A stretch of DNA of 64,000 nt, taken from assembly GCA_947644695.1 (NCBI GenBank), contig CANSAJ010000004.1:5750-69749 (forward strand), in the 5' to 3' direction. Source of the DNA: an uncultured Bacillota bacterium. Lineage in GTDB: Bacteria; Bacillota_I; Bacilli_A; RF39; UBA660. The notes beneath the pieces are model-generated. The model was not told the origin of the DNA, did no database searches, and was given only the letters and a program-made list of their open reading frames with translations. This document shows, piece by piece, positions 887 to 21,004 of this stretch (position 1 is the first letter of the stretch; the number at the start of each line of letters is the position of its first letter). The position numbers and the translations under genes were made by a program.

Positions 887-1019
887 CTCCTAAATATTTC
901 TTTCTATTTAATTATATCATATTATTGTTTTTAAATTTTATTACTTTTTTGTAATATTAATTTTTGTTTAAAAATGGTATGTAAATGTAGTATAATATGA
1001 GAGTAATTTGGAGGCAATT

Positions 1020-1619
1020 ATGAGTAAGGTTTTTACGTTTAGAGTTAGTATTGAAGGTTTGGAGAATAAGATATGGAGAATTATTGAGATTATTGATTTG
1101 AGGACATTGGCTGATCTTGCTTATAGTATTTTAGCTTCTTTTGATTCTCTTGCTTACCATATGTATTCTATTTCATATAAAGAAAGCAAGTATAGTTGTG
1201 TTAATTATGGTTTTGAGCCTTTTATTAATGATGTTTGTTCTTTAGCTTCAAGTGTTAGGTTAAATAAACTTAATTTAAGTAAGAATGATGTTATGGTTAT
1301 GGAATATGATACTGGAAGTCCAACAGATTTTGTAATTGAGTACCTAGGTAATCACGAATTGGAAACTGGTGCTGGAAGACGTTATCCATATATTAAGTCT
1401 GGTATGGGAAGTGGAATGATAGATGATATTAGTGGTCATCACCTATTTGAAATTATAGAAGATATTGATAGAAAAGGTATTTCTGATTACTTTTATACTA
1501 TGGGTTATGAAAGAGAATGTATATATGATTATCGAGTATATGATATAAATTTAGATAATGCTACACTTAAGGAAAAAATAGAAAAGATAAAAGAAGGTTA
1601 TGAAAGTATTTCTAATTAG
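1020..1619 (+). CDS. pRiA4b ORF-3-like (plasmid/IS-passenger type) protein
   Basis: The N-terminus FTFRVSIEGLENKIWRIIEIIDLRTLADLAYSILASFDSLAYHMYSI matches the Y.F.V.L.....IWR...V....TL.dLh pattern of the PRiA4_ORF3 family. GGAGG lies 5 nt upstream of ATG 1020; the ORF track starts at TTG 1008. Confidence 0.55.
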   Translation: MSKVFTFRVSIEGLENKIWRIIEIIDLRTLADLAYSILASFDSLAYHMYSISYKESKYSCVNYGFEPFINDVCSLASSVRLNKLNLSKNDVMVMEYDTGSPTDFVIEYLGNHELETGAGRRYPYIKSGMGSGMIDDISGHHLFEIIEDIDRKGISDYFYTMGYERECIYDYRVYDINLDNATLKEKIEKIKEGYESISN

Positions 1620-1638: not shown

Positions 1639-1647
1639 TGGTATAAT
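1639..1647 (+). promoter_or_regulatory. Extended -10 element (TGgTATAAT) ahead of the radical SAM operon
   Basis: TGGTATAAT sits in the 62-nt gap between 1619 and 1682, about 35 nt upstream of ATG 1682. No good -35 was seen. Confidence 0.3.
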
Positions 1648-1681: not shown

Positions 1682-2848
1682 ATGAGAAAAAAGTTAGGAA
1701 TAATTGATGCTGATTTGTTAGATAATGGAACTAGACATCCTAATTTGGCGTGTATGAAAATATCTGCTTATTATAAAGATAAGGGATATAATGTATCACT
1801 ATTAGATTCTTATGAGAATTTAGATAGTTATAATTTAGTCTTTATAAGTAAGGTTTTTACTTTTACAAAAGTTCCTATGACTATTTTTAAAAGAGGAATT
1901 TGTAAGGATATAAATCATCCAGAAGATAGTTTAAAGAAGAATATTAGAATAGGTGGTACAGGTTTTTATTATGATAAAGCAGAGGATTTGCCTTATGAAA
2001 TAGAGCATCATATGCCAGATTATAGTTTATATGAAGATTATATTTTGGAAAAGATAAAGAATGGAGAACCTAGGAGTAGGTATGTAGATTATTTAGATTT
2101 TTCTATAGGATTTGCTACTAGAGGTTGTTTTAGAAAATGTGATTTTTGTGTTAATAAAAAATATAATAATGTATTTATAGCATCACCGATTAAAGAATTT
2201 TTTGATGAATCGAAACCTAAGATTTATTTATGGGATGATAATTTTATGGCTTCTCCTGATTTTAATTCTATTTTAGATGATTTAATTGCTACTGGAAAAC
2301 CATTTCAGTTTAGACAAGGTCTTGATATTAGACTTATGACTGGCGAGAAAGCTATGAGGCTTGCAAAGGTTAAGTATTATGGAGATTATATTTTTGCATT
2401 TGATCATATAGAGGATAAGGATATAATTTCTCGTAAATTAGAGTTATGGAGGAGATATTCTAATAAGTCTACTAAACTTTATGTTTTAACGGGTTATGAT
2501 AGCCAAGATGAAGTGGATATAAAGAATACATTTGAGAGAATAAAGATACTTATGAAGTATGGATGTTTACCTTATATTATGAGATATGAAGATTATAAAA
2601 ATTCTAGATTTAAGTCAATGTATATTCAGATTGCTAGGTGGTGTAATCAACCACAGTTTATTAAAAAGCAAAGTTTTAGGCAATATTGTGAGGATAATGA
2701 AAGGTATCATAGGATGAAGAAGAAAGATGTCGTTAAAAATTGTGCGTGTTATCAAACTATGTTAGATTTTGAAGAAGAATTTCCTGATATTGCAAAAGAA
2801 TATTTTGATTTAAGATGGGAAGACTTAAATGAATATTTAAAGAAATGA
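1682..2848 (+). CDS. Radical SAM enzyme with an N-terminal Rossmann/B12-binding-like domain
   Basis: ATRGCFRKCDFCVNKKY carries a canonical CX3CX2C cluster motif (Cys149/153/156, nt 2126-2149). The N-terminus LGIIDADLL...HPNLACMKISAYYKDKGYNVSLLD resembles the cobalamin-binding-like domain of class B radical SAM enzymes. Confidence 0.75.
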   Translation: MRKKLGIIDADLLDNGTRHPNLACMKISAYYKDKGYNVSLLDSYENLDSYNLVFISKVFTFTKVPMTIFKRGICKDINHPEDSLKKNIRIGGTGFYYDKAEDLPYEIEHHMPDYSLYEDYILEKIKNGEPRSRYVDYLDFSIGFATRGCFRKCDFCVNKKYNNVFIASPIKEFFDESKPKIYLWDDNFMASPDFNSILDDLIATGKPFQFRQGLDIRLMTGEKAMRLAKVKYYGDYIFAFDHIEDKDIISRKLELWRRYSNKSTKLYVLTGYDSQDEVDIKNTFERIKILMKYGCLPYIMRYEDYKNSRFKSMYIQIARWCNQPQFIKKQSFRQYCEDNERYHRMKKKDVVKNCACYQTMLDFEEEFPDIAKEYFDLRWEDLNEYLKK

Positions 2849-2849
2849 A

Positions 2850-3539
2850 GTGATAAGTATGAGTTTTTATGAAGAGTGGGAAAAAGTTTATAGTATTGAG
2901 AAGAGTAGTAATTTATATTTTGATGAGTTTTTGAATTTATCTCAAGATTCTTTGAAGTTATTTTTAGAAGGTCCAGATGATAAGCTTGTTCAAATGGTAC
3001 GTTTTTTGGTTAATATACCAATTAAAGAATTTATTTTAAGAATAAATTCATCTAAAGATTATAGTGCTCGAGATATAGTTCAGTTTAGTAATTTAGATAA
3101 TGCAATAATGGGGGTTTCTTCGGCTTTAAAGTTAAAGAAAGTATCTTTGTCTTTTTTGGAGATTGGTAGAATTTTATTTTTTAATAAGAGTGATGTTGCA
3201 TGTAAAAAATATGGAGAGAATCATTCTAAACTTGCAAGAGAACTTTCTATGGTTACTTTTGAAAGAAAGAGAGATGTAAAAATTTCTAATACACCATTTG
3301 GAGTTTTTAGTTTATCACTTGATAATGATGATAAGATTCAGGTAGTGAGAAGATTATTACTTCGTAATCCTTTTATTCAGACTTTTATTTATAATGCAAG
3401 AAACGGAAAAGTTAAGTATAGTGATATGACTAAGTGTTTGGCTTATAAAACATCTTTAAGAAGAAAATCTAATGTAAAAAAAATTATTAATATTATATTA
3501 GAAGGTGAAGAATGCTTGGATAACATTATATGGGAGTAG
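2850..3539 (+). CDS. Hypothetical protein (229 aa), operon member
   Basis: The ORF starts 1 nt after the radical SAM stop (GTG 2850 or ATG 2859) and ends 3 nt before the next ATG. No motif was recognised. Confidence 0.55.
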   Translation: MISMSFYEEWEKVYSIEKSSNLYFDEFLNLSQDSLKLFLEGPDDKLVQMVRFLVNIPIKEFILRINSSKDYSARDIVQFSNLDNAIMGVSSALKLKKVSLSFLEIGRILFFNKSDVACKKYGENHSKLARELSMVTFERKRDVKISNTPFGVFSLSLDNDDKIQVVRRLLLRNPFIQTFIYNARNGKVKYSDMTKCLAYKTSLRRKSNVKKIINIILEGEECLDNIIWE

Positions 3540-3542
3540 TAA

Positions 3543-5618
3543 ATGAGTTTAAGAGAATTAGATATAAAAAATTGTTATGAAACTACTGGAGATAAAATGC
3601 AGTTATTAGAAAAATTTTATATTCCAGTTTTACAAGAAACAGTTATATATTATAGGATAGCTGGATTTTTTAGTAGCAGTAGTTTATTAGTGGCATCTCA
3701 AGGTATAGAGGGATTAATTAAAAATGGTGGTAAGATGTGTTTGTTAATTTCTCCAGAGTTGTCAGAGCAAGACTATTTAATTATAAAGAATTCTCAAGAA
3801 AAGAAGTTAGATGAATCATTAAGTATTTTTTCTCAAATGGATATAAATGATTTTCCTAAAAGTGATAATTTGCAGGCTTTGGCGTGGTTACTAGCAGCAG
3901 GAAGGCTTGAGATAAAAATAGTTGTTCCTAAGAATTCTGCTGATAGTTTATTTCATCAAAAGATAGGCATTTGTTATGATAAAGAAGGTAATATGATTTC
4001 TTTTAGTGGTTCTATAAACGAATCTGCTCGTGCATGGCTTTACAATATAGAGGAATTTAAAGCCTTTAAATCTTGGGCTCCTGGGCAATCAGAATATTTT
4101 TATAATGATTTAAAAAAATTTAATTCTTATTGGAATAATGAGAGAACTGATGTAGCAGATGTTTATGATTTACCTGAATCATTTAAGAAAAAAATAATCG
4201 ATGTTAAACCTAGAGATATAAATGAGCTTTCTATTATGAAAAAGTATAGAGAGAAAGCTTTACAAAAAGATACTTTACTTTCTTTATTTGCTCATCAAAG
4301 ACGAGCTATTGAGATTTGGAAATCTAATAATTATAGACTTTTAATGGAAATGGCTACTGGAACTGGTAAGACTAGAACTGCTATTGGTTGTTTTTTGCAT
4401 TTAAAAGAATCTCTTAATAAATTCTTAGTTATTGTTGCAACTCCATATGATACATTATCTAGGCAATGGGAAAAAGATGTGAATGATTTAAATATTAAAT
4501 TTGATAGAAGTGTTATTGTGGATAGTACTAATTCTAAGTCATATGTTGATTTAGAGAAGATACTTTTGGATTTGAATATAGACTTAATAGATAATGCTAT
4601 TATTTATACTACACATAGAACTGCATCTGGAGATAAATTTATTAATATAGTAAAATCACACAATAGAAATTTAAAAATTTTATTTATTTGTGATGAAGTA
4701 CATGGAATAGGTGCCGATAAGCAAAGGGAAGCTTTGTTAGATATTTATCAATATCGTATAGGATTAAGTGCAACTCCCGAAAGGCTTTATGATGAAGAAG
4801 GGACTAATTTAATACGAAGTTATTTTGGAGATAAGTCATTTGAGTTTACAATTAAAGATGCTTTAAATACTATTAATCCTATAACTGGAAAACCTTTTTT
4901 AAATCCATTTTATTATTATCCATGTTTTGTGGATTTGACAGAAGAGGAGCTAGGAAAGTATAAAGATTATTCTAGAAGGATAGTAATTGAGCAGTCAAAA
5001 GAGAATCCAGATAGAGATATGATTGAAAGCTATTTAATGGAACGTGCTAAAATAGTTAAAAATGCTTGTAATAAATTATCTGTTGTAAAAACAATAATTG
5101 ATAGTATGAATATTAAAGAGAAGATTAAAGATACTATAATTTTTTCTACTAATAAACAACTTGAAGAGGTTATGTTATTTCTAAGTGAAATGAATATTAC
5201 TAGGAGTAAAGTGACTGAAAATGAATCAACTACTAAACGTATGGGTATAAATGATTATACTGAAAGAGAAGAGATAATAGATCAGTTTAGAAAAGGCAAC
5301 ATACAAGTTTTAATTGGAATTAAGTGTTTAGATGAAGGAATAGATATAAAAAATGCTAGAGTGGCAATTTTAATGGCTAGTAGTACTAATCCAAGAGAGT
5401 ATGTGCAAAGAGTAGGTAGAGTTATTAGAACTGATAAAGATAAAGATTTTTCTGTTATATATGATTTAATAGTTAGAACTTATTCTGAAGATAATGTCAA
5501 GAATAGAATTTTAGAAAAAGAAGCAAAAAGAGCTATGTTGATAGCTAGTAATGCAGTTAATTATGAACAGGTTAAAGAAGCTTTTGAGAGGAATGGAGTG
5601 ATTTTAGATGGCAATTAG
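3543..5618 (+). CDS. PLD-like (HKD) nuclease domain fused to an SF2 (ResIII/DEAH-type) helicase
   Basis: N-terminal HKD-type motif FHQKIGICYD...SGSINES (aa 138-160). Helicase motif I is MEMATGTGKTRTA, motif II FICDEVHG, motif III GLSATPER and motif VI QRVGRVIR. GGGAG RBS upstream. Confidence 0.85.
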   Translation: MSLRELDIKNCYETTGDKMQLLEKFYIPVLQETVIYYRIAGFFSSSSLLVASQGIEGLIKNGGKMCLLISPELSEQDYLIIKNSQEKKLDESLSIFSQMDINDFPKSDNLQALAWLLAAGRLEIKIVVPKNSADSLFHQKIGICYDKEGNMISFSGSINESARAWLYNIEEFKAFKSWAPGQSEYFYNDLKKFNSYWNNERTDVADVYDLPESFKKKIIDVKPRDINELSIMKKYREKALQKDTLLSLFAHQRRAIEIWKSNNYRLLMEMATGTGKTRTAIGCFLHLKESLNKFLVIVATPYDTLSRQWEKDVNDLNIKFDRSVIVDSTNSKSYVDLEKILLDLNIDLIDNAIIYTTHRTASGDKFINIVKSHNRNLKILFICDEVHGIGADKQREALLDIYQYRIGLSATPERLYDEEGTNLIRSYFGDKSFEFTIKDALNTINPITGKPFLNPFYYYPCFVDLTEEELGKYKDYSRRIVIEQSKENPDRDMIESYLMERAKIVKNACNKLSVVKTIIDSMNIKEKIKDTIIFSTNKQLEEVMLFLSEMNITRSKVTENESTTKRMGINDYTEREEIIDQFRKGNIQVLIGIKCLDEGIDIKNARVAILMASSTNPREYVQRVGRVIRTDKDKDFSVIYDLIVRTYSEDNVKNRILEKEAKRAMLIASNAVNYEQVKEAFERNGVILDGN

Positions 5619-5802
5619 TGAAAAGATTGTAAGTAGGATAAATGAATTAAATGAAGATGAAAAATTGAAGGAATTGATGTTTACAATTTTGGAGATGGAG
5701 AATTATGGACATTATAGATATATTGATAGATATGATACTTTAATTCAAGAATATATTAGTAAAGAGAAGGTAGGAGAGGATAGTAATGGTCAAGATAAAT
5801 AA
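5608..5802 (+). CDS. Small hypothetical protein (64 aa), operon member
   Basis: ATG is preceded by GGAGTG. It overlaps the helicase stop by 11 nt and the next gene by 17 nt. No motif was recognised. Confidence 0.45.
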   Translation: MAISEKIVSRINELNEDEKLKELMFTILEMENYGHYRYIDRYDTLIQEYISKEKVGEDSNGQDK

Positions 5803-7792
5803 AATTCAGTTTATTAATTATCGTCAGTATAAAAATTATTCTTTGGATTTTAATAGTAATGGAAGTAATAATTTACATATTATTAAAGCAAAGAATGGAA
5901 CTGGAAAGACTACTTTTTTGAATGGTATTTTGTGGTGTCTGTATGGGGAAGAAAAATATATTTCTAATAAAAATAAATCTTTACCAGTTTATAATCAATC
6001 TATTCTTTCGTCTTTTAAGCCATCTAGCAATGTTGAGGTTAGTGTTATTTTAGAAATTAGTGATAAAGATAGTAATATTGTTTTTACTAGGACACAATTA
6101 TTTAATATTGTAGAAGATCCTTTAAATGGTAATAGAAATGCAATTTCTTTAGGTTCGTCAGAATTGAAAGTTTTTGTAACTGAGAAGTCATCAAGCACTA
6201 ATTCTAAAGTTTATGAGGATGTATTGGAAACTGGTAAGTTTGTGAAGAAGTATTTTGATAAGGACATATTTGATTATTATTTCTTTGATGGAGAAAATTT
6301 AAAAGATTATTTTGATGAATCGAGTTCAGAAAGAATAAAGTCTTCTGTTTTTAGTATTTCTCAGGTAACTTTATTAGGTAATACTATTGCTCATTTGAAT
6401 AATTTAATAGATGGTAAGACTAGACAGATATCTAAAATTGGTGATGAAGATGTAAATGTTTATGATAAAGAAAGAAATTTAGAAAGAGAAATTAGAGAAA
6501 AAGAACAAGAAAATGTTAGACTTGCTGGAGAGATTAAGAAGTTACAAGAGGATTTTGAAGAAAAAGATTCTTTACTTAGAAATTATGCTCCCGTTAAACT
6601 TAGACAAGAAAGACGAGAGGTTCTTGATAAAGAACTTTTGGATTTGGAGAGTCAATTTAATGAATTTAAGAAAGATCAATATTCATTTATAAAGAGATAT
6701 TTAGTTTTGTTTAAGTTATATCCTAGAATTAAATCTACATTAAATATGATTAATAAAAAACAGTCAGAAGGGCTTTTGCCTCCTGTTATTGATAGGAATT
6801 TGATTTTGGATTTGGTTGATAAAAAGGTTGATACATGTCCTGTATGTGATAATCATATAGATGAAAAAGCACTTGTTCATTTAAGTGAACTTTTAGGGCA
6901 GCTTAATATTTCAACAGTTGCATCTCATAAATTGATTGAGATTAAAAGTAGTTTAGAGTCAGCGGTTGATGAATGTAAAGAATATAAAGATAAGAAGGCC
7001 AAACTCATTAGTAGAGAGAAGGAATTAAATTTTAAAATAGAAAAAGTAAGGGAAGAATTAAGTGATATTCATTCATATTTATCTACTTATTCTAATATGG
7101 ATTCAAATAGTATTAATGTTTCGCAAATAGAGTTAGATAGGAATCGAGTTAGAGATGAGTTGGATGTTCGTAAAAAGGTGATTGTATTAAATGAGAATAA
7201 TATTGAAATTTGTAAGGAAAAATTAGTTGGTATAAGAAAAGATATTGAAAATATAGAAGCTAGAGATAAGAATAGAACTTTTTTAGGTGAACAGCTTACA
7301 CTTTTGAGGAAGCTTTATGCTAATTTTTCTGGTATTCAAAATGATATTATGTTGGGTATTAGAGATGAAATTATGCGAAAAACTTGGCAAAGATTTGATT
7401 CTATGATTTGGAAAAAGAAGACTTTTAAATATTTAGATATTAATGATTCATATGAAATATCTGTTTATAATATGGAAGGTAATGAGATGACAGCTTCTAT
7501 GAGCGCTACTGAGCATATGGCTTTAGCTTATGCATTTACGTTTGCAATTCATGATGTTTCTGGTATAAATTCCCCTCTTGTTGTTGATTCGCCTTTAGGA
7601 CGTGTTTCTGATGAAAATAGAGAACTTATGGCTAAGGTACTTCTTAATGTGTCTCGTGAGAAGCAAATTATTATGTTGTTTACACCTGATGAGTATTCTA
7701 AAAATGTTGCTAATATTTTTAATGATGCATCTAGTTTAAGAGTTATTGCTTTGGATGGTAATGAAAAGGAAGTTCAGGAGGTTAGTTGTTAA
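5786..7792 (+). CDS. DndD-family SMC/Rad50-like ABC ATPase
   Basis: Walker A is KAKNGTGKTTFLNGILWCLYG. A long central coiled coil contains a CPVC hook-like motif. The C-terminus VVDSPLGRVSDENRELMAKVLLNVSREKQIIMLFTPDEY matches the D(T/S)PLGRLD...Q(V/I)I.L(S/F)T signature of DndD/SspC-type ATPases. Confidence 0.85.
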   Translation: MVKINKIQFINYRQYKNYSLDFNSNGSNNLHIIKAKNGTGKTTFLNGILWCLYGEEKYISNKNKSLPVYNQSILSSFKPSSNVEVSVILEISDKDSNIVFTRTQLFNIVEDPLNGNRNAISLGSSELKVFVTEKSSSTNSKVYEDVLETGKFVKKYFDKDIFDYYFFDGENLKDYFDESSSERIKSSVFSISQVTLLGNTIAHLNNLIDGKTRQISKIGDEDVNVYDKERNLEREIREKEQENVRLAGEIKKLQEDFEEKDSLLRNYAPVKLRQERREVLDKELLDLESQFNEFKKDQYSFIKRYLVLFKLYPRIKSTLNMINKKQSEGLLPPVIDRNLILDLVDKKVDTCPVCDNHIDEKALVHLSELLGQLNISTVASHKLIEIKSSLESAVDECKEYKDKKAKLISREKELNFKIEKVREELSDIHSYLSTYSNMDSNSINVSQIELDRNRVRDELDVRKKVIVLNENNIEICKEKLVGIRKDIENIEARDKNRTFLGEQLTLLRKLYANFSGIQNDIMLGIRDEIMRKTWQRFDSMIWKKKTFKYLDINDSYEISVYNMEGNEMTASMSATEHMALAYAFTFAIHDVSGINSPLVVDSPLGRVSDENRELMAKVLLNVSREKQIIMLFTPDEYSKNVANIFNDASSLRVIALDGNEKEVQEVSC

Positions 7793-7793
7793 T

Positions 7794-8237
7794 ATGAAGG
7801 ATAGAATTTTTATAAATGGTAAATATAGAGATTTTGTAGATGAACTAAAAAATAAGAAAATTTTAGATATTGATAATACTACTGAAAATAAAGATATATT
7901 TATTTTGTTAGCGGCTCTTGGTATTGATTCTCCGAAAGAGATTGATGGAGCAAAGCATGGTTTTATTAGGAAAGAATATCTTCATACTTATGAAATTGCT
8001 TTGATAACTGCTATGACTTTGGGAAATATAAGTGAAAATGAAGATGTGGATAAGTATTTTGTTGGAAATACATTTTATGATAATGCAGAAAAGTTTGTGG
8101 AGGCAGGATTTGGTGTGTTAAAGCAAAAGATAGAAGATGATAGTGCTGATGAAGAGTTGTTTAGAAAAAAATTAATGGAAGAGCTTGAAATACTTTATGA
8201 TGCTAATGTTAAGGCAGATTTAAATGTGGAAGTTTAA
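7794..8237 (+). CDS. Small helical protein (147 aa), possibly related to Dnd-system-associated small proteins
   Basis: ATG 7794 lies 1 nt after the DndD-like stop, with AGGAGG upstream; the ORF-track start 7746 is inside the previous gene. The pattern DIFILLAALGI...IALITAM...AEKFVEAGFGVL recalls small proteins found beside DndD-like genes, but this is recollection only. Confidence 0.45.
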   Translation: MKDRIFINGKYRDFVDELKNKKILDIDNTTENKDIFILLAALGIDSPKEIDGAKHGFIRKEYLHTYEIALITAMTLGNISENEDVDKYFVGNTFYDNAEKFVEAGFGVLKQKIEDDSADEELFRKKLMEELEILYDANVKADLNVEV

Positions 8238-8358
8238 AAAATGAATTAAAAGGAGACTATGATTTTGGGATTCTCGGGCTCTTTTTTTGTGTATTTACTA
8301 GTATAGGGTTTGTTTTTCTGCTATAATTTATTATGAGAAATAATTGGTAGGAGGGATT

Positions 8359-8715
8359 ATGTCAAGGATAGTAAAAAATAAAGAATTGGTAAATACAAGA
8401 TTAGCAACAAATTATGGGGGGTGGATGTATTGTGAAAAGTGTGGCGAAAATATAGGATATTTATGTTATTCAACTTATGATAAGATCGAATTAGATTATA
8501 AATGTAATTGTGGAAATCATGGTAGTGTTTTATTGGATTTTGAAGATAGTAAGGTAGGAAAAAGTAGTACTTCAGAGTTAGTTATGGTGAAAACAAGATT
8601 TTGTTGTCCAAAAGATAATGAGCCTTTAATTACAATACTGGATAAAAAAGTGACTAATTATGATTTGAAGATTACTTGTAAATCTTGTGAAAGTATTTAT
8701 CAGAAGTCAAAATAG
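8359..8715 (+). CDS. Cys-rich protein with two zinc-ribbon-like CxxC pairs
   Basis: CEKCGEN...CNCGNHG and CCPKDN...CKSCES. AGGAGGG lies just upstream of ATG 8359. Confidence 0.5.
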   Translation: MSRIVKNKELVNTRLATNYGGWMYCEKCGENIGYLCYSTYDKIELDYKCNCGNHGSVLLDFEDSKVGKSSTSELVMVKTRFCCPKDNEPLITILDKKVTNYDLKITCKSCESIYQKSK

Positions 8716-9178: not shown

Positions 9179-9829
9179 ATGAAATGTGAAAAATGCGGGA
9201 ATATAATTGAAGATAAGTATATTTGGTGTCCAGTTTGTGGTACTAAAAAACCAAAGGGTGTAATAGTTAATAATACTGCTAGTTCTACTCAAGTTGATAA
9301 TAAATCGCAGGAAAATGAAAATATAAGTATATCATGTGGGAAATGTGGTAAAAAAATTAAATTAGGCTGTAATTTTTGTAATAATTGTGGGAATAAATTA
9401 ATAGGTGAAAATATTAGTAGTTATAATGAATCTTTAGTTGTGTATTGTGAGTGTGGACAAAAACTTGAATCAGGATGGAAGTTTTGTTCAAATTGTCAAA
9501 GACCAATCACTGTTGAAATAAGAAATGAAAAAAAGAGTGTTAATGAGAAACAAAATGACGCAAATATATATCTTTTAATATATGCAATTTCTGTTGGTGT
9601 TTATATGTTTGGTGGTCTTATTCCTTTTGTTTCATATAGTTCTTCATTATGCGGATTAGTGGCTTTAGTAACTATTATAACAGGGAAAATAAAATGTCCT
9701 AATAGTGTTATAATTAAAGTATTATTTTGGATTACGATAGTTTATATTATTTGTTTATTTATTTTGATGTTGTGGATGATTGTAGTATGTAATGATATGC
9801 TTGATTCGCTTCAATCTTGTCCAGGGTAG
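9179..9829 (+). CDS. Membrane protein with three N-terminal zinc-ribbon repeats
   Basis: CEKCGN..CPVCG, CGKCGK..CNNCGN and CECGQ..CSNCQ are followed by hydrophobic C-terminal helices. Confidence 0.6.
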   Translation: MKCEKCGNIIEDKYIWCPVCGTKKPKGVIVNNTASSTQVDNKSQENENISISCGKCGKKIKLGCNFCNNCGNKLIGENISSYNESLVVYCECGQKLESGWKFCSNCQRPITVEIRNEKKSVNEKQNDANIYLLIYAISVGVYMFGGLIPFVSYSSSLCGLVALVTIITGKIKCPNSVIIKVLFWITIVYIICLFILMLWMIVVCNDMLDSLQSCPG

Positions 9830-9837
9830 AGGTTATT

Positions 9838-10563
9838 ATGTTTAATACTAAGATATCACTCTATACTATAATGATTTTACTTTCGTTAATTTCTAATATA
9901 ATAGTAGTTATTCTAAGTTATAAAAAATTTAATATTTCTAGAGATGAAATAATTGGAGCATTGGTATATGAAAATGTTGGAATAATTGTAGGTGCTAAGA
10001 TGCTTACTTTCTTACAAAGTTATAGTTCTTATGTTAAATTTGATTTTTTTAGTTTAGGTTTATCATCATATGGTGGAGTAATTGGCGCTATTGTATGTTT
10101 AATAATATTTGCACTACAATTTAGAAAAAGTTTTAAAGATATTTTATTTATTTTTATGCCTTCTATTCCTCTTATGTATGCTTTAGGTAAAGTTGGTTGT
10201 TTTTTGGTTGGTTGTTGCTATGGAATAGAATATAATGGCTTAGGTCATATTGTTTATAGATATTCATTAGCTGCACCTAACGGAGTTAATTTATTTCCAA
10301 TACAAATATTAGAAACATTTTTGTTTATGTTAATATTTATTTATATGATTTACAATATAATAAAAAATGAGTTTAGTTTTAAAACGTTAGGGATAAGTTT
10401 CGTTTTATGTGGTATAGTAAAATTTTTTTTAGATTTTTTAAGAGCAAGTCATATTGGAATTTTTTTATCTTTAAATCAAATTATAAGTATAGTATTTATA
10501 GTTGCTGGAATAATTATAATTAAAAAACAGAAGAATAAGTGGAAGGTATATAGTAAAATGTAA
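9838..10563 (+). CDS. Prolipoprotein diacylglyceryl transferase (Lgt) family membrane protein, probably a paralog
   Basis: Multi-TM protein with LGKVGCFLVGCCYG, resembling the G(R/K).G.F..G...G motif of Lgt. AGAGG RBS precedes ATG 9838. It overlaps the preceding zinc-ribbon gene. Confidence 0.6.
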   Translation: MFNTKISLYTIMILLSLISNIIVVILSYKKFNISRDEIIGALVYENVGIIVGAKMLTFLQSYSSYVKFDFFSLGLSSYGGVIGAIVCLIIFALQFRKSFKDILFIFMPSIPLMYALGKVGCFLVGCCYGIEYNGLGHIVYRYSLAAPNGVNLFPIQILETFLFMLIFIYMIYNIIKNEFSFKTLGISFVLCGIVKFFLDFLRASHIGIFLSLNQIISIVFIVAGIIIIKKQKNKWKVYSKM

Positions 10564-10954: not shown

Positions 10955-12415
10955 ATGGAAATTTATGAAAAACTTGTTAATCAAATTTCTGAAGTTAAAT
11001 ACTTGTGTACTGAAAATTCTCGTAGATATCGTCCCATAATGAGATGTTTTTTTAATCACTATGAAAGACTTGAGTATTCTTTATATAAAGAAGATGTTTT
11101 TGAAGAATTATGTACAAATGAATTTTTTTATGATTATACTATTAATGAATGTGAAAGAGACCTAGATACTTTAGTGGAATGGATGAGTCTGACTAAAACC
11201 CATGATACTAAAAATGCCACTTCTATAGAAGAATTTAAAAATAAGAAGTTTAGATATCAAATGACTGAGTACGCTATAGAGATCGAAAGACTTGCTATTT
11301 CTCTTGAAGATATGGAAATTAAAACGGCTTCTTTAGAGCCTAAACTTTTTGATCGATTAAGAATGAATATTTCTAAGATGGAAGAAGTAGGTAAATTGTC
11401 ATTAGAAGAAGTGAATGAAGTTTGGAATAATATAAATGATGACTTTACTAAGCTAAATCAAAATTATCAAGATTTTTTGAAAAAGTTTAATGAAGAAAAA
11501 AGCGAAGAACTTATGCAAAGTGTACTGTTTTTACAATTTAAAAGAGATATTGTTAAGTATTTAAGAGAATTTGTTAAAGGATATCAAAAAAATATTTGTT
11601 ATATTAAAGATAGCATCAAAAAAATTAGTAATGCTGATATTAATTTATTTTTAAAAAGTATAGTTGAATATTTAAAAAAGACACCTACAGTTCTTAATAA
11701 TTTTAATTTTGAGTATTTTGAAGAAGTTAATAGAAATAAGATTTATAATATTTTTAAATGGTTTACAGGTACAGAAGTTGAAATGAGTGAAGGGGATAAG
11801 TTAATTGCTGCTACGGATAGTATTATTGTAAAAATAACTAAGTATGCTAATTCTCTTATTGAACTTCATGGTAATTTAACTAATAGAAAAGAAGAGTATA
11901 AGCATCTTTGTAAATTATTTGATAAATTAGATAATGTTAATGAGTGTCATAAATATTCATCTGTAATTTTGGGTATTCATTCTGTTAGACATTATGTTGG
12001 AAATAGTAATATTAATACTGATACTATACCTTGTACTTATGATATACCTTCAACTTCAATTATGCTTTCTTCTAGAACTAAATTTAAAAAAGAGAAAGTT
12101 TTTATGGAGGCTTTAAAAGATAAAAGTGCAGAAAAAAAGAGATTATTAGAAGAGTATAGAAAAGAAGTAGAGGAAAATAAGAGAATTCTTAAAAACTTAG
12201 TTAAGGATAAAAAGATAGAATTAAAAGGGAAAGTAAATTTATCTAAAGTAGAGAGAAGATATATACAAAAGTTACTTGCTTCTTCTTTGAAAAAGGAAAC
12301 AGAGTTTGGACTTACTTACAAAGTAATTAAGCATGATGGAAAGTGCGAAATAAATTCTCCTGATGGTGTTTTTGTAATGAATGAAGTTGAAGTTTTGTTT
12401 GAGGGGGATATTTAA
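10955..12415 (+). CDS. jetA: Wadjet JetA (MksF/kleisin-like; TIGR02677-type)
   Basis: First gene of four overlapping genes of 486, 388, 1359 and 425 aa. That order and those sizes match the TIGR02677/02678/02680/02679 cluster later named Wadjet. The N-terminal YRPIMRCFF motif fits the family as I remember it. Confidence 0.75.
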   Translation: MEIYEKLVNQISEVKYLCTENSRRYRPIMRCFFNHYERLEYSLYKEDVFEELCTNEFFYDYTINECERDLDTLVEWMSLTKTHDTKNATSIEEFKNKKFRYQMTEYAIEIERLAISLEDMEIKTASLEPKLFDRLRMNISKMEEVGKLSLEEVNEVWNNINDDFTKLNQNYQDFLKKFNEEKSEELMQSVLFLQFKRDIVKYLREFVKGYQKNICYIKDSIKKISNADINLFLKSIVEYLKKTPTVLNNFNFEYFEEVNRNKIYNIFKWFTGTEVEMSEGDKLIAATDSIIVKITKYANSLIELHGNLTNRKEEYKHLCKLFDKLDNVNECHKYSSVILGIHSVRHYVGNSNINTDTIPCTYDIPSTSIMLSSRTKFKKEKVFMEALKDKSAEKKRLLEEYRKEVEENKRILKNLVKDKKIELKGKVNLSKVERRYIQKLLASSLKKETEFGLTYKVIKHDGKCEINSPDGVFVMNEVEVLFEGDI

Positions 12416-13581
12416 TGGAAGTTAGAAGTAAAGAATTAAAATATCTTTTAAGTAATTATTGGTGTGTTAAAGAATTTAACACTAAGGAGTATTTTGATAT
12501 AAAAAATAATTTAGATTATTATAGAGAATTTATAAGAGATAAACTTGGTAGTAAGTTAATAGTTAATGATAGGTTTATTAAACTTGAAAAGATTCCATCA
12601 GTTCCTAAAACTTATATGGGAATTCCAAATTTTAATGAAAAGTTAGAGTATGTTTTACTTTTTATAATTTTACTTTTTTTGGAGGATAAACCTAAATCTA
12701 CACAATTTATTTTATCTAGTCTTATTGATTATATTAGTAATACATCTATAAAGTTAGAGATTGATAATGTTCCTAACTGGAATGTTTTACATCATAGAAA
12801 GTGTTTAGTTAACGTTATTAAACATTTATGTTCTGTTGGTGTTATTAAGGCTATAGAAGAAGAAAATTTTGCTGAAGATAGTGCTGCTGAGGCTCTTTAT
12901 GAAACAACTGGATTGTCAAATTATTATGTTAGAGAGTTTAAGGGTAATATTTTAGATTATGAGACACTGGAAGAATATGTTAATGATGAATTTAATAATC
13001 AAAGTATTTTAGTAGGAGATGTTAGGAGATATAAAGTTTTTAGACATTTATTTTATTCTCTTTGTGCATTTAAATGCGATTTAACTATGGCAGAAGAGGA
13101 TTATTTTAAGAAGTTTAGAGGTAGTATTAGTAATGAAATAGGAAAGTATTCATTAAGTGAGTTAGAAATAACAAAAAATATGGTGACATTAGTTAATAGT
13201 AATGAAAGTAGAGAAAAACAAGATTTTCCTAATAATAAAGCGATTAGTGATATAGTTTTACTTTTTAATAATAATGTACTTTCTAAAATAGAATCTGGTG
13301 AAATAAAATTAAATAATGAAGAATGTGCATTTGTTTCAAGAGAAACTGTTGCTAGAATTTTAAAAGAAGTAAGAGAAGACAATGTTATGTATTTTAGTAA
13401 AAATTATAAAGACATGACATTAGATAATTTTATTAGAGAAGTTACTAATTATTTAGTAGAGTATGATTTTGTTAGGAAAAGTGAGTTTGGATATAGTATT
13501 ATGCCAAGTGTTTCTAGATTAATTGGCTATATTCCTAAAGATAGTGAAGTTCAACTTAATTTATTTGGAGGTGAAGAATGA
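12415..13581 (+). CDS. jetB: Wadjet JetB (MksE-like; TIGR02678-type)
   Basis: Called on position and size within the four-gene cluster. Its start overlaps the jetA stop (ATG at 12415). Confidence 0.7.
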   Translation: MEVRSKELKYLLSNYWCVKEFNTKEYFDIKNNLDYYREFIRDKLGSKLIVNDRFIKLEKIPSVPKTYMGIPNFNEKLEYVLLFIILLFLEDKPKSTQFILSSLIDYISNTSIKLEIDNVPNWNVLHHRKCLVNVIKHLCSVGVIKAIEEENFAEDSAAEALYETTGLSNYYVREFKGNILDYETLEEYVNDEFNNQSILVGDVRRYKVFRHLFYSLCAFKCDLTMAEEDYFKKFRGSISNEIGKYSLSELEITKNMVTLVNSNESREKQDFPNNKAISDIVLLFNNNVLSKIESGEIKLNNEECAFVSRETVARILKEVREDNVMYFSKNYKDMTLDNFIREVTNYLVEYDFVRKSEFGYSIMPSVSRLIGYIPKDSEVQLNLFGGEE

Positions 13582-16500
13582 TGAAAAGATTTAGAATTAC
13601 TAAAATAGGACTTTTAAATTTTTGGCTTTATGATGAAGAAGAGTATGATTTTTATGGTGGAAAATTAATTTTAAGAGGTATAAATGGTAGTGGGAAATCA
13701 GTTACTATGCAATCTTTTATTCCTCTTATTTTAGATGGAAATAAAAGTCCTGATAGACTAGATCCTTTTGGTTCTAAAGAAAGAAAAATAGAAGATTATA
13801 TTTTGGGAGACGCTGATGGAGTTCAAAAAGAGGAGTCAATCGCATATTTATATATGGAAACATATTATGAAGAAGAGAATAAATATATAACTATTGGACT
13901 TGGATTTAGAGGGAGAAAAGGAAAGCCAGTGGAATCATGGGGATTTGCTCTTAAAGATGGTAAAAGAGTTTTAAAAGATTTTTATTTATATAAAGATCCT
14001 GTTAATAAGATTCCACTTTCTAAAAATGAACTTAAGAGTAGACTTGGAGATTTTAATGAGTTTACGGATACTATGAAAGATTATAAAGCTATGGTTAACA
14101 GGCTATTATTTGGATTTCCAAATTTAGATGTTTATGATGAATTTATTAAGCTTTTATTACAGTTAAGAAGTAACAAACTTTCAAAAGATTATAAACCTAC
14201 TAATTTAATAGATGTTTTGAATAAAGTTTTACAGCCTTTATCTGAAGAAGATTTAAGACCATTGTCTTTAGCTATAGAGCAAATGAATGGTGCTAAGGAA
14301 AGAATAGAAACTTTAGAAAGTAATTTAAAAAAATTAAATGATTTTTTGAGAGTTTATAGAAATTATAATGAGGCTGTAATTCTTGAAAAAGCAAGAAACT
14401 ATAAGAAAGAAAATGATGAATATAATTTAGAAAAGAAACAACTTTTAGATACAGAAAATGAAATAAATAGTTTGAAAGAAGAATTAGAAAATAAAAATGT
14501 TAGACATGGTGAAGTTTTAGAAGAACTTGATATAAATTTTGAAAATAAGAAACAATTAGATAATACAGATTTAAATAAAAAGGTTGAATCTCTTTCAAGA
14601 ATTAATGAAAGTATTAATGTATTAAATGATAAAGTTAGTGTTTTAGATAAAAATTTAGAAAATGATGAAGAAACTAAACTTGAACTTGATATTAAAATTA
14701 GTGAAGTATCTAATGAGATTTATGGCTTAAAAAAAGATATTACAGATTTGTGTGCTTCATTAAAAGATACTAAAGATGATAGTTATTTTGGTGAAATAGC
14801 GTTTTTTGTGGATGAACTTATGCTTAATATGGATAAAGAATTTTCTTTTGATAGTATTTTTATGTCACTTAGAAGTTATTTAGAGAAAATTAATTTGTTG
14901 ATAACTTATTTTGAAGAACAATCAAAGTTATTTAGTGAGAGTGAAAGTACAAGAATTGAAAGAGAAAAGCTTGAAAGGGATTATAAATTCTTAGAGAGTG
15001 ATATTAAAGGACTTGAGAGTAAACGCAAAGATTCGATTAAAACATGGGAAGAAGATTTTATAAATTTAATAAATAATAATAAATTTTTAAAATTAAGTGA
15101 TTTAAATAAGAAACAGATTTTTGGTTATATTGAAGATTATAGTTTAAGTAATTTTGAAAAAATTGTTAGATTATATAAGTCATGTTCAAATGATTTAATA
15201 AATAATATTATTCGTAATAATTTAATTTTAGATAGTAAGAAAGATAAAAAAAGAGAAGAACTTTCTTTATTAGAAATTCAGTATGATGAAGTTAATAATG
15301 CTGATACTTTAGATCTTCCTACAAATTTAGATACAAACAGAATTCTTGAAGAAAATGGTATTAATAATATACCTTTGTATAAGTGTATTGAATTTAAAAG
15401 TGATGTTAGCGATAATTTTAGAGATAAGATAGAGGCGGCATTATTTAGTTCTAATATTTTGAATGCTAGAGTTATAAATGAAAGTGACTTATCGAGAGTG
15501 AGAAATCTAGATGTTGAAGTTTTATTTCTAACTAAGGCTTCTAAGAAAAAGAATAATTTACTTAAGTATTTTGATGTAAATGCAGATGATGTAAACATTA
15601 ATAAAAAATATATCTGTGAAATTCTAGAAAGCATAAGCGTTAGTGAAGAAGATGAAGTTTCAATTTTAGTAGATGGTATTTCAAAGATAGGCGCACTTAG
15701 AGTAAAAGCTGATAAGAAATATAAGCAAATGTATATTGGTTATAAGAAAAGGCTAGAGCTTAAAAATAAGAAATTAAGTGAACTAAAAGAAAGCATGAAT
15801 TTTATTAAAAACGAAATATCTAAAATTGATGATTTAATTTTGGATGGGAACGCACAAATTTCTGTTATTGAAGAAGAAGAGAGCAATTTACCTAACAATG
15901 ATAATATTAATGAAATAATTGCTAAAATAAATGAATTAAATATTAAGCTTAGTTATAATGATGAAAGACAAAAGGAGTTAGAAAAAGTTCTTTCTTTATT
16001 TGATTTAAAACTAGGTGAGTTAAGGGATAAAATAATGGAAAATAGCAAAGGATTAAGTATTCCGCTTAATTTGGAACAGTATAAGATAGTTTCTAAAGTT
16101 GTTGTCTCTATTAAAGAAAGTTTGCAAGAATTAAAGAATTTACATTCAAATTATGTTAATAAGTTAATAACTATTGAAGGTTTTAAAGAGCGCTTAGATT
16201 ATATTATAAATAATATAGCATTTGTAAAAGCTGAAAGAAATGAAAAAGAGAGAGAATTAAATGTTAATATTGCTTCAAGAGATAAGATAAATGAACTTTT
16301 AAATAGTAAAGAGTATGTAGACGAGAAAGAAAAAATTATAGAATTAGATAGTTTGATTAAAGACCTGTCAAATGAAAAAGAAGACTTGGTTAGAAGTATT
16401 TCTAAATTAGAAGAAAGATTAAAAAATAAAAATGAATTATTTGCTACACTTAAAGAAAGTGTTAACTTTAAAGAAAATCGTTCTAATGTATTTAGAGAAG

Positions 16501-20859: not shown

Positions 20860-21003
20860 ATGATGGGAAATTTTTATAGGAAATCAATGTTGAAAAAGTG
20901 TAATTTACATATTCATACAATAAAATCGGTATATGATAATGGCAAATATGGTGATGAAGAAAAGTATAATGGTTTATTAAAAAAACTAATAGGTGGTGAA
21001 TAG
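20860..21003 (+). CDS. 47-aa micro-ORF, possibly a remnant of a PHP-domain gene
   Basis: AGGAAGTGA RBS. Its stop lies 1 nt before the hsdR ATG. CNLHIHTIKSVYDNG resembles the N-terminal (D/N)LHxHTxxSxxDG motif of PHP phosphoesterases. Confidence 0.25.
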   Translation: MMGNFYRKSMLKKCNLHIHTIKSVYDNGKYGDEEKYNGLLKKLIGGE

Positions 21004-21004
21004 T

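What the first reader, a model, noticed from the sequence alone, without database searches (positions are those of the whole stretch)
1682..8237. Six-gene translationally coupled operon (radical SAM, unknown, PLD-nuclease/SF2-helicase, micro-ORF, orphan DndD-like ATPase, small helical protein): candidate undescribed defence system
Seen in sequence: six + strand ORFs are joined by gaps of 1, 3, -11, -17 and 1 nt. An extended -10 lies upstream of the first gene, and the next ORF starts only after a gap of about 120 nt. The recognisable parts are a CX3CX2C radical SAM enzyme, an HKD-nuclease fused to a DEVH helicase, and a Walker A / coiled-coil / D-S-P-L-G-R ATPase of the DndD type. Established knowledge: PLD nucleases, SF2 helicases and DndD/SMC-like ATPases recur as building blocks of defence systems (DISARM, Mokosh, Dnd/Ssp, Lamassu), and such systems cluster in islands. 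Here a Wadjet system and an R-M/retron element lie directly downstream. Inference: I know of no named system with this gene set. There is no methyltransferase, no DndA/C/E and no SspA/B/D, and the radical SAM enzyme sits where a self-marking or signal-producing enzyme would be expected. It could also be two adjacent three-gene modules (1682-5618 and 5608-8237).
Basis: partly seen in the sequence, partly recalled or inferred. Interest (0 to 1): 0.88.

Follow-up and report, generated by a model that had tools for sequence, protein, structure and literature searches.

The report
Radical SAM partner of PbeABCD defence
Four of the six genes are the already named PbeABCD anti-virus system, but in place of the usual DNA-sulfur marking genes the operon carries an uncharacterised radical SAM enzyme plus a DNA-binding partner, a pair that recurs with several restriction modules and in phages and probably installs an unknown DNA mark.

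Summary
The six tightly packed + strand genes exist as described. Genes 3-6 are not new. They are PbeA (HKD nuclease fused to an SF2 helicase), PbeB (64 aa), PbeC (DndD-sister ABC ATPase with a CxxC hook) and a PbeD-sized protein, which together make up the named PbeABCD system. No Dnd or Ssp modification genes were detected among the window ORFs tested. The only methyltransferase found is the HsdM of a separate type I R-M system about 16 kb downstream.

Genes 1-2 are the new part. G1 is a divergent radical SAM enzyme: its CX3CX2C motif is invariant in all 152 homologs aligned. G2 is a fast-evolving winged-helix protein and is often fused to G1. In 78 species genomes from at least five phyla, G1(+G2) directly abuts PbeABCD (30), a ParB/SNF2 cassette (18), GmrSD-family enzymes (7), DndFGH (4) or a small PD-(D/E)XK nuclease (4). 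Only 1 of the 80 loci fetched holds a DNA methyltransferase. In phage contigs G1 occurs alone among DNA methyltransferases and SAM-synthetase-like genes.

My best reading is a 2+4 modification-restriction system in which G1/G2 installs an unidentified radical-SAM-dependent DNA mark. I found no description of this pairing in the literature I could search.

The parts
1639..1647 (+). Extended -10 promoter element TGgTATAAT upstream of gene 1, followed by an AGAGG ribosome-binding site near 1668
   Evidence: Read directly. The consensus scan did not call it because the -35 is poor, so this is a sequence match only.
1682..2848 (+). G1: divergent radical SAM enzyme (388 aa) with an N-terminal Rossmann-like domain, an rSAM core and CX3CX2C at residues 149-156. 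Predicted DNA-modifying enzyme.
   Evidence: The CX3CX2C motif is invariant in 152/152 homologs. PHROG phrog_9298 'radical SAM domain protein' hits at E 2e-54. Pfam Radical_SAM gives sub-threshold hits in 14/20 homologs. The AF2 model has pLDDT 87.7. Foldseek against BFVD finds viral rSAM/COG1032 proteins at E 3.6e-6 to 1e-4. Against PDB, rSAM enzymes reach probability 0.9 or more but E about 0.02.
2850..3539 (+). G2: winged-helix-containing partner of G1 (226-229 aa; the likely start is the ATG at 2859). It is fused to the C-terminus of G1 in many homologs. Predicted nucleic-acid-binding or specificity subunit.
   Evidence: The fused ~630-aa homologs carry the same KYGENHxK motif. The AF2 model has pLDDT 96 with a winged-helix element; Foldseek finds only weak ROQ, MukE and MarR matches. 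G2 is 25-41% identical where G1 is 48-76% identical. G2 co-evolves with G1.
3543..5618 (+). PbeA: HKD (PLD-type) nuclease fused to a DEVH SF2 helicase (691 aa)
   Evidence: PADLOC PbeA hits at E 2.6e-195 over the full length. Pfam finds ResIII, Helicase_C and a weak PLDc_2 match. H138, K140, D146, the GSxN motif and helicase motifs I, II, III and VI are at least 95% conserved in 33 homologs.
5608..5802 (+). PbeB-position small protein (64 aa), overlapping PbeA by 11 nt and PbeC by 17 nt
   Evidence: It matches PbeB in position and size (66 aa). Homologs occupy the same position in 11 loci. No profile hit was found.
5786..7792 (+). [quoted passage not shown]
   Evidence: PADLOC PbeC hits at E 5e-83. 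TIGR03185 DndD scores only 98.8 bits against a cutoff of 245.85. Walker A, C351/C354, the signature motif and Walker B are at least 95% conserved.
7794..8237 (+). PbeD-position protein (147 aa), the presumed DndE cognate
   Evidence: It matches PbeD in position and size (152 aa). Homologs follow PbeC in 22 loci. Only 2/19 family members hit PADLOC PbeD (best E 9.4e-5), and the window protein itself gives no hit.

Best explanation
The operon is a two-module, restriction-modification-like defence system. Module 2 (3543-8237) is PbeABCD. By analogy with published work, the PbeC/PbeD pair (an ABC ATPase with a zinc hook plus a DndE-like DNA binder) scans DNA. PbeA (an HKD nuclease fused to an SF2 translocase) then acts on DNA that lacks the host mark, and the small PbeB protein regulates the system. 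Module 1 (1682-3539) takes the place of the DndCDEA phosphorothioation genes of the founding Pbe system. G1 is a radical SAM enzyme that uses a [4Fe-4S] cluster and SAM, and G2 is a winged-helix protein that directs it to DNA. Together they are predicted to place an as yet unidentified covalent mark on host DNA, most likely a radical-mediated base modification such as C-methylation. That mark would tell Pbe what is self. Phages carry G1 alone, next to their DNA methyltransferases, presumably to put the same kind of mark on their own DNA and escape. What is shown: the gene identities, the intact catalytic motifs, the conserved synteny and the exchange of modules. What is inferred: that DNA is the substrate, what the mark is, and that Pbe reads it.
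For: (1) PbeA and PbeC are assigned full-length by PADLOC, with catalytic motifs conserved.
(2) The order G1-G2-PbeA-(B)-C-D recurs in 30 of 78 species genomes across Bacillota, Actinomycetota, Bacteroidota, Chloroflexota and Lentisphaerota. The median gap from G1 to the next gene is 9.5 nt.
(3) The same G1(+G2) unit abuts other nuclease or helicase modules: a ParB-like/SNF2 cassette (18 loci), GmrSD-family enzymes (7), DndFGH (4; PADLOC DndF 4e-144, DndG 3e-116, DndH E 0), a small PD-(D/E)XK nuclease (4) and AIPR (1).
(4) G1 proteins that sit next to different partners are up to 84% identical, and a phage orphan is 94% identical to a Pbe-linked G1. Co-evolution separates {G1, G2} from {PbeA, C, D}.
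(5) Only 1 of 80 bacterial loci contains a DNA methyltransferase. No other gene family recurs in more than 7 loci, and the two families that reach 7 are ABC-transporter ATPases and phage-type integrases. G1/G2 is therefore the only candidate modifier.
(6) In 75 IMG/VR contigs with a G1 call, G1 mostly lacks G2. A DNA methyltransferase is immediately adjacent in 26 and within two genes in 38. SAM-synthetase-like genes occur in 22 of the 80 viral loci. GenBank phages show the same arrangement.
(7) G2 evolves like a specificity subunit.
(8) A Cro/C1-type HTH gene lies just upstream of G1 in 5 loci, as in controller-regulated R-M systems.
(9) The literature records many 'solitary' Pbe loci with no known modifier, including Clostridium strains, and asks which mark they use.
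Against: Nothing here shows that G1 acts on DNA, and no modification has been measured. G1 fails the Pfam Radical_SAM threshold (best E 0.017) and has no PDB sequence relative. Three Pbe-linked loci lack G2 (L014, L034, L050). GmrSD-family partners normally attack modified DNA, which fits a self-marking role only if they behave like SspE. Rakesh et al. argue that DndFGH, and possibly Pbe, can work without a cognate modification. The window covers only 64 kb, so Dnd or Ssp genes elsewhere in this genome cannot be excluded. Xiong et al. saw no DNA cleavage by Pbe, so the effector step is itself unsettled. The residual G2-PbeC/D co-evolution signal is weak (partial rho 0.21-0.25).
Confidence: 0.6

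Rival explanations
1. G1/G2 installs phosphorothioate, or another backbone mark read like it, by a radical SAM route that replaces DndACDE or SspABCD. This would be a third pathway to the mark that Pbe, DndFGH and SspE-type enzymes are known to use.
For: Reviews list three restriction branches tied to phosphorothioation: pbeABCD, dndFGH and the DUF262-DUF1524 protein SspE. G1(+G2) is found directly next to members of all three kinds, with no Dnd or Ssp modification genes alongside.
Against: No cysteine desulfurase or PP-loop sulfur carrier recurs in the loci. Apart from the rSAM triad, no cysteines are conserved; C336 and C354 are lost in most phage copies. There is therefore no MiaB- or LipA-type auxiliary cluster to donate sulfur. 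Pbe-type systems also pair with cytosine methylases, so these partners are not specific to phosphorothioate. The GmrSD-like partner did not hit the PADLOC SspE models.
Confidence: 0.1
2. PbeABCD here is a stand-alone, modification-independent system. G1/G2 would then be an accessory sensor, regulator or back-up effector, for example one that alters nucleotides or a small molecule as viperin-like rSAM enzymes do, rather than a self-marking enzyme.
For: Rakesh et al. propose stand-alone or suicidal modes for DndFGH and the CxC systems. Other rSAM enzymes act in defence without modifying host DNA (Ophion). Some Pbe-linked loci lack G2.
Against: An antiviral effector would not be expected as a solitary gene inside phage methyltransferase clusters next to SAM-synthetase-like genes. 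A fast-evolving winged-helix partner fits sequence recognition. The pairing with a minimal PD-(D/E)XK nuclease looks like a type II R-M pair.
Confidence: 0.15
3. G1 matures or modifies a protein or RNA, for example the small PbeB peptide or a tRNA, and G2 is an RNA-binding adaptor.
For: Many rSAM enzymes modify peptides or RNA. The weak fold matches of G2 include the RNA-binding ROQ domain. A 64-aa protein is encoded in the operon.
Against: G1 keeps 58-84% identity when it is paired with modules that have no small peptide (DndFGH, GmrSD, PD-(D/E)XK) and in phages. There is no SPASM or twitch cysteine cluster. All partners are DNA-acting enzymes.
Confidence: 0.05
4. The six genes are two unrelated systems that only happen to be neighbours in a defence island.
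For: The window is a defence island, and unrelated systems do cluster in such islands.
Against: The same order, with overlapping or near-abutting reading frames, recurs in 30 or more species from at least five phyla. In another architecture the partner cassette is inserted between G1 and G2.
Confidence: 0.03

Closest known systems
DndCDEA-PbeABCD of Haloterrigena jeotgali A29 (Xiong et al. 2019, PMC6459918)
   Same: The four-gene cassette is the same, in the same order and with the same sizes: an HKD-SF2 helicase, a ~65-aa protein, a coiled-coil ABC ATPase and a ~150-aa protein. PADLOC gives full-length PbeA and PbeC matches.
   Different: There is no dndCDEA next to it or among the window ORFs tested. 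A radical SAM enzyme plus a winged-helix protein sit upstream instead. The host is a low-GC bacterium, not a haloarchaeon.
CxC ABC ATPase-DndE systems coupled to cytosine methylases or MTaX1 (Krishnan 2020, as summarised in Rakesh 2024, PMC10853773)
   Same: The core is the same (HKD-SF2, small protein, CxC ATPase, DndE cognate), paired with a modification enzyme other than the phosphorothioation genes.
   Different: The partner here is not a methyltransferase but a radical SAM enzyme. That partner is not mentioned in the 2024 paper or in its held supplement. The 2020 paper could not be read.
DndABCDE-DndFGH and SspABCD-SspE phosphorothioate systems
   Same: The logic is modular: one modification module is exchanged among several restriction modules. 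G1/G2 is itself found next to DndFGH and next to DUF262/GmrSD-family proteins.
   Different: There is no cysteine desulfurase, PP-loop DndC/SspD, DndD/SspC or DndE/SspB in the module. The chemistry is unknown.
Two-domain radical SAM enzymes of the COG1032 / B12-binding-domain type, and rSAM nucleic-acid methylases such as RlmN and Cfr (from my own knowledge)
   Same: G1 has an N-terminal Rossmann-like domain followed by an rSAM core with CX3CX2C. Foldseek matches viral COG1032 'Fe-S oxidoreductase' and methylthiotransferase models over the full length and the Mmp10 core.
   Different: G1 is below the Pfam threshold, has no PDB sequence relative and has no conserved auxiliary-cluster cysteines. 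Cobalamin binding was not tested. The predicted substrate is DNA.
Phage orphan DNA methyltransferases (anti-restriction)
   Same: Solitary G1 copies sit in the same phage gene clusters as N6/N4 and C5 methyltransferases and SAM-synthetase-like genes.
   Different: The enzyme superfamily is different, and no modification has been demonstrated.

Membership tests
PbeABCD (CxC ABC ATPase-DndE system) | PbeA: an HKD/PLD nuclease domain fused to an SF2 helicase | tested here: met
   PADLOC PbeA hits at E 2.6e-195 over residues 2-679. Pfam finds ResIII, Helicase_C and a weak PLDc_2 match. H138, K140, D146, GSxN and DEVH are conserved.
PbeABCD (CxC ABC ATPase-DndE system) | PbeC: an ABC ATPase of the CxC clade, with a coiled-coil insert and a Cys zinc hook at its apex | tested here: met
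   PADLOC PbeC hits at E 5e-83. CPVC lies at residues 351-354, mid-protein, and is at least 95% conserved. Walker A, signature and Walker B motifs are conserved. The DndD equivalog model scores below its cutoff.
PbeABCD (CxC ABC ATPase-DndE system) | PbeB: a small, rapidly evolving protein encoded between pbeA and pbeC | tested here: met
   A 64-aa ORF overlaps both neighbours. Founding PbeB is 66 aa. Support comes from position and size only; no profile hit was found.
PbeABCD (CxC ABC ATPase-DndE system) | PbeD: a DndE cognate (two ribbon-helix-helix domains) downstream of pbeC | tested here: inconclusive
   The 147-aa protein is in the right position (founding PbeD is 152 aa). The window protein gives no PADLOC or Pfam hit, and 2/19 family members hit PADLOC PbeD at 9.4e-5.
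PbeABCD (CxC ABC ATPase-DndE system) | An adjacent DndCDEA phosphorothioation module, as in the experimentally validated system | tested here: not met
   The PADLOC scans returned no Dnd or Ssp modification assignment for the operon proteins or for the other window ORFs scanned, which were 19 in all including every ORF of 450 aa or more; PbeC's secondary DndD matches reflect its being a DndD sister. The founding paper itself found only 42% of PbeAC pairs near dndCD.
PbeABCD (CxC ABC ATPase-DndE system) | Antiviral activity that depends on the host DNA mark | not testable with these tools
   This needs plaque or transformation assays.
Radical SAM superfamily (G1) | A CX3CX2C motif that ligates the [4Fe-4S] cluster, after the first core strand | tested here: met
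   C149, C153 and C156 are invariant in 152/152 homologs. In the AF2 model the motif follows strand 140-143.
Radical SAM superfamily (G1) | A partial TIM-barrel rSAM fold | tested here: met
   Foldseek against BFVD finds a viral methylthiotransferase, COG1032 and 'Radical SAM' proteins at E 3.6e-6 to 1.1e-4. Against PDB, SuiB, BlsE, HemN, HydE and Mmp10 reach probability 0.89-0.96 but E about 0.02-0.06.
Radical SAM superfamily (G1) | A match to Pfam PF04055 above the gathering score | tested here: not met
   The window protein gives no hit. Among homologs, 14/20 give sub-threshold hits, best E 0.017. PHROG phrog_9298 'radical SAM domain protein' hits at E 2e-54.
Radical SAM superfamily (G1) | Reductive cleavage of SAM | not testable with these tools
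   This needs anaerobic biochemistry.
Dnd / Ssp phosphorothioate modification module | A cysteine desulfurase (DndA/SspA), a PP-loop sulfur transferase (DndC/SspD), an ATPase (DndD/SspC) and a DNA binder (DndE/SspB) | tested here: not met
   G1 and G2 have no PADLOC, NCBIfam or Pfam hits to these families. No such gene family recurs in the 80 related loci.
Classical R-M (methyltransferase-based) | A DNA methyltransferase in the operon | tested here: not met
   There is none among the six genes. Only 1 of 80 related bacterial loci has a methyltransferase detectable with four phage methyltransferase queries and one HsdM query. The type I HsdM at 24000-25652 belongs to its own system.
   Only weak secondary hits were found (DrmD 1.7e-6, LmuB 3e-30, PLD_Helicase 5.8e-18), far below the PbeA and PbeC scores.

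The most novel reading that the evidence does not exclude
G1/G2 is a previously unrecognised, radical-SAM-based DNA modification module. It would make a new kind of epigenetic mark, possibly a carbon-centred base modification, in anaerobic bacteria and archaea. That mark would serve as the 'self' label for at least five different restriction modules (PbeABCD, DndFGH, GmrSD-like, ParB/SNF2 and small PD-(D/E)XK nucleases), and phages would have captured the enzyme as an anti-restriction tool.
Probability: 0.5. Interest if true: 0.9.

Novelty: new variant of a known kind. Interest (0 to 1): 0.8.

Why it matters
Two groups have left the same question open: what do the many Pbe (and DndFGH) loci that lack Dnd genes and methyltransferases use to tell self from non-self? 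This operon offers a concrete, testable answer, a radical SAM enzyme with a DNA-binding partner. If that is right, it adds a new enzyme class, and probably a new chemical mark, to prokaryotic DNA epigenetics. It would also explain a conserved 'radical SAM domain protein' seen in gut, rumen and archaeal phages. Several cultured strains carry the module and could be used to find the mark: Enorma massiliensis phI, Mitsuokella jalaludinii DSM 13811, Peptacetobacter hominis, Collinsella spp. and Clostridium cavendishii DSM 21758. An unknown DNA mark in abundant gut anaerobes and their phages would also matter for sequencing-based methylome work and for making such organisms genetically tractable.

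Tried and rejected
- Sequence searches of G1 against PDB found nothing, even at E 10.
- Pfam, NCBIfam and PADLOC gave no hits for G1, G2, PbeB or PbeD of the window.
- The Foldseek PDB search for G2 gave only weak winged-helix matches.
- I considered a MiaB- or LipA-type sulfur-inserting enzyme and down-weighted it, because the extra cysteines are not conserved.
- I considered RiPP-type maturation of PbeB and rejected it, because G1 pairs with modules that have no peptide.
- I considered that the 379- and 500-aa genes upstream of a G1-DndFGH locus might be DndA and DndC. The 500-aa one is Stk2 and the other has no hit.
- No intrinsic terminator was found after 8237.
- Attempts to identify the source organism or replicon failed: the look-up of encoding contigs returned only short metagenomic contigs, and there was no plasmid match.
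- The mirror-tree test for G2-PbeC/D co-evolution gave only a weak residual signal.
- Krishnan et al. 2020 (PMC7544218), which first described the CxC systems, is not held. Prior mention of this partner there cannot be excluded.
- Ophion, a published rSAM defence system, has a different gene set.

Full report
**Observation.** The region holds six + strand ORFs: 1682-2848 (388 aa), 2850-3539 (229 aa), 3543-5618 (691 aa), 5608-5802 (64 aa), 5786-7792 (668 aa) and 7794-8237 (147 aa). The junctions are +1, +3, -11, -17 and +1 nt. Homologs of gene 2 start at the ATG at 2859, so that gap is more likely 10 nt. An extended -10 (TGgTATAAT, 1639-1647) and a ribosome-binding site precede gene 1. This is a sequence match only, because promoter-like matches in the region are no more frequent than in shuffles. 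The next ORF begins more than 100 nt after 8237, and no convincing terminator lies in between. The window has about 26% G+C with a strong positive GC skew.

**What genes 3-6 are.** PADLOC assigns the 691-aa protein to PbeA (E 2.6e-195, end to end) and the 668-aa protein to PbeC (E 5e-83). NCBIfam's 'DNA phosphorothioation system restriction enzyme' and DndD models match only below their cutoffs. PbeABCD was defined by Xiong et al. 2019. It is a four-gene cassette next to dndCDEA, and all four genes are needed to stop a haloarchaeal virus. PbeB and PbeD there are 66 and 152 aa. Rakesh et al. 2024 reannotated the four proteins as follows:
- PbeA is an HKD endonuclease fused to an SF2 helicase.
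- PbeB is a rapidly evolving small protein.
- PbeC is a 'CxC' ABC ATPase, sister to DndD.
- PbeD is a DndE cognate.

The window proteins fit this picture:
- PbeA has H138, K140, D146, GSxN and DEVH.
[quoted passage not shown] All of these are at least 95% conserved in relatives.
- The 64-aa and 147-aa proteins fit by size and position. For the PbeD-like family only 2 of 19 members reach the PADLOC PbeD model, so that assignment is positional.

**What is missing.** No Dnd or Ssp modification gene was found among the operon proteins or among the 19 other ORFs of the 64-kb window that were scanned, which include every ORF of 450 aa or more. The rest of the window is a defence island: type II Wadjet, a PDC-S72 protein, a type I R-M system and a type XI retron RT.

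**Genes 1-2.** Neither protein hits Pfam, NCBIfam or PADLOC.

G1 belongs to a large unnamed family. More than 6,698 clusters at 90% identity match it, as do 169, 921 and 1,863 clusters at 50% identity at E of 1e-30, 1e-10 and 1e-3. The evidence that G1 is a radical SAM enzyme is as follows:
- The CX3CX2C motif is invariant in 152 of 152 aligned homologs, and 74 positions are at least 95% conserved.
- PHROGs calls the family 'radical SAM domain protein' (E 2e-54).
- Among homologs, 14 of 20 give sub-threshold Pfam Radical_SAM hits and no other recurrent family.
- The AlphaFold model (pLDDT 87.7) matches viral radical SAM, COG1032 and methylthiotransferase models over its whole length (E 3.6e-6 to 1e-4).
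- The same model matches solved rSAM enzymes only weakly.

Cysteines other than the triad are not conserved in phage copies, so there is no conserved auxiliary cluster.

G2 is homologous to the C-terminal half of the ~630-aa fused forms of G1. It models at pLDDT 96 as a helical protein with a winged-helix element. It evolves much faster than G1, with mean pairwise identity 0.35 against 0.60, but keeps a KYGENHxK motif and a basic STxxRRKSNV motif.

**Comparative genomics.** A scan of one genome per species found G1 in 211 genomes, and I analysed 80 loci. I searched them with the six window proteins, clustered all neighbouring ORFs and annotated the recurrent families. In the 78 loci that had a G1 gene call, the partners were:
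- PbeA-(B)-C-D directly downstream in 30 loci, plus 2 truncated at a contig end
- a cassette of ParB-like, 137-aa, SNF2 helicase and ParB-like genes in 18 loci, often inserted between G1 and G2
- GmrSD-family (DUF262) proteins in 7 loci
- DndFGH in 4 loci (PADLOC DndF 4e-144, DndG 3e-116, DndH E 0)
- a small PD-(D/E)XK nuclease in 4 loci
- AIPR in 1 locus
- nothing recognisable in 13 loci, which are mostly prophage regions or short contigs

The Pbe-linked loci come from Bacillota, Actinomycetota, Bacteroidota, Chloroflexota and Lentisphaerota. The hosts are almost all anaerobes, which fits an oxygen-labile enzyme.

G1 proteins attached to different partners are up to 84% identical. A pairwise-distance analysis separates two co-evolving blocks, {G1, G2} and {PbeA, C, D}. 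The unit structure is therefore 2 + 4, not 3 + 3.

Only one of the 80 bacterial loci contains a recognisable DNA methyltransferase. No other gene family recurs in more than seven loci, and the two families that reach seven are ABC-transporter ATPases and phage-type integrases.

**Phages.** IMG/VR holds at least 156 G1 relatives. In the 80 loci examined, G1 is usually alone, without G2 or Pbe. It sits among ParB_N-N6/N4 and C5 DNA methyltransferases and SAM-synthetase-like genes. The counts are:
- A methyltransferase is present in 53 of the 80 loci.
- A methyltransferase is immediately adjacent to G1 in 26 of the 75 loci with a G1 call.
- A SAM-synthetase-like gene is present in 22 of the 80 loci.

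GenBank phages show the same arrangement. The contrast is what one expects of a DNA-protective modification enzyme: bacterial copies sit with nucleases and no methyltransferase, and phage copies sit with methyltransferases and no nuclease.

**Interpretation.** The best-supported model is an R-M-like system in which G1/G2 replaces DndCDEA as the self-marking module of PbeABCD. The published restriction branches linked to phosphorothioation are dndFGH, sspE (DUF262-DUF1524) and pbeABCD, and G1/G2 is found next to members of all three kinds. That keeps open the reading that the mark is phosphorothioate or resembles it. Against it are the absence of any sulfur-mobilising partner and of an auxiliary cluster. 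CxC systems also pair with cytosine methylases. I therefore favour an unknown radical-mediated base modification. The effector mechanism of Pbe itself is unsettled, since the published views are replication arrest without cleavage and HKD-mediated cleavage.

**Novelty.** I found no paper that links this radical SAM/winged-helix pair to Pbe, DndFGH or any defence system. The one published rSAM defence system the searches turned up, Ophion, is unrelated. Xiong et al. list Clostridium PbeAC loci as having neither DndCD nor a methyltransferase nearby, and both groups ask what such systems use. One caveat remains: the 2020 paper that first described the CxC systems could not be read.

**Verdict.** This is a new variant of a known kind, with a well-supported and directly testable hypothesis of a new DNA modification enzyme. 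The function of G1/G2 is inferred entirely from sequence, structure prediction and gene context.

Noticed in passing
window 10955-18927: A complete type II Wadjet system (JetA, JetB, JetC, JetD), with PADLOC E values from 1e-97 down to 0.
   Followed up: partly
window 19775-20833: A 352-aa protein that matches the PADLOC candidate PDC-S72 (E 5e-124), with weaker Fic-like (SoFic) and CARF-like hits.
   Followed up: no
window 20993-26817 and 27076-28737: A type I R-M system (hsdR, hsdM, hsdS), followed by a retron-type reverse transcriptase whose best match is RT-Protease type XI (E 4e-149).
   Followed up: partly
window 1008-1619 and 8344-8715: The flanking ORFs are a PRiA4_ORF3-family protein upstream and a 123-aa protein rich in CxxC pairs downstream, the latter with its own TGcTATAAT. 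Neither is conserved next to G1 or Pbe in other genomes.
   Followed up: partly
L010:11159-15034 (also L011, L013, L065, L076, L078, L079, L061, L008, L019, L026, L041): An uncharacterised four-gene cassette (ParB-like 336 aa, 137 aa, SNF2 helicase ~490 aa, ParB-like ~325 aa) sits between G1 and G2, or just upstream of fused G1G2, in 18 species. It has weak PD-Lambda-5_A, PDC-M38A and ZorD/DpdE-type hits only.
   Followed up: partly
L020, L022, L025, L033 (Clostridium cavendishii, C. hydrogeniformans and two Clostridium MAGs): Fused G1G2 is directly followed by dndF, dndG and dndH, with no dnd modification genes in the flanks held. In L020 the defence kinase Stk2 lies upstream.
   Followed up: partly
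L113:4519-5349 and 21 other IMG/VR loci: Phage contigs with G1 often also encode a short SAM-synthetase-like protein (Pfam S-AdoMet_synt_N) beside the methyltransferases. This suggests that these phages boost the SAM supply.
   Followed up: partly
P0169, P0171, P0172, P0175; plasmid hit LC711081.1: Some G1 homologs are 680-692 aa long and match the query in two or three separate stretches. An archaeal record annotates a 'radical SAM enzyme with an N-terminal intein'. This suggests intein insertions in this family.
   Followed up: no
L014, L034, L050: In these loci G1 (367-382 aa) is followed directly by PbeA with no G2 gene or domain, so G2 is not universal in Pbe-linked loci.
   Followed up: no
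alignment A1, columns ~460-560 (fused homologs such as P0045, P0063): Fused G1G2 proteins carry a Cys-rich linker (CxxC...C...C, possibly a zinc ribbon) that the split window form lacks.
   Followed up: no
L006, L067, L069, L072, L078 (about 75-107-aa ORF just upstream of G1): A Cro/C1-type HTH protein (Pfam HTH_26, E 7e-20) precedes G1 in five loci. This is reminiscent of the controller proteins of R-M systems.
   Followed up: partly
window 9179-10563: Two overlapping ORFs (216 and 248 aa) lie between the Pbe operon and Wadjet and have no PADLOC hits. Their function is unknown.
   Followed up: no
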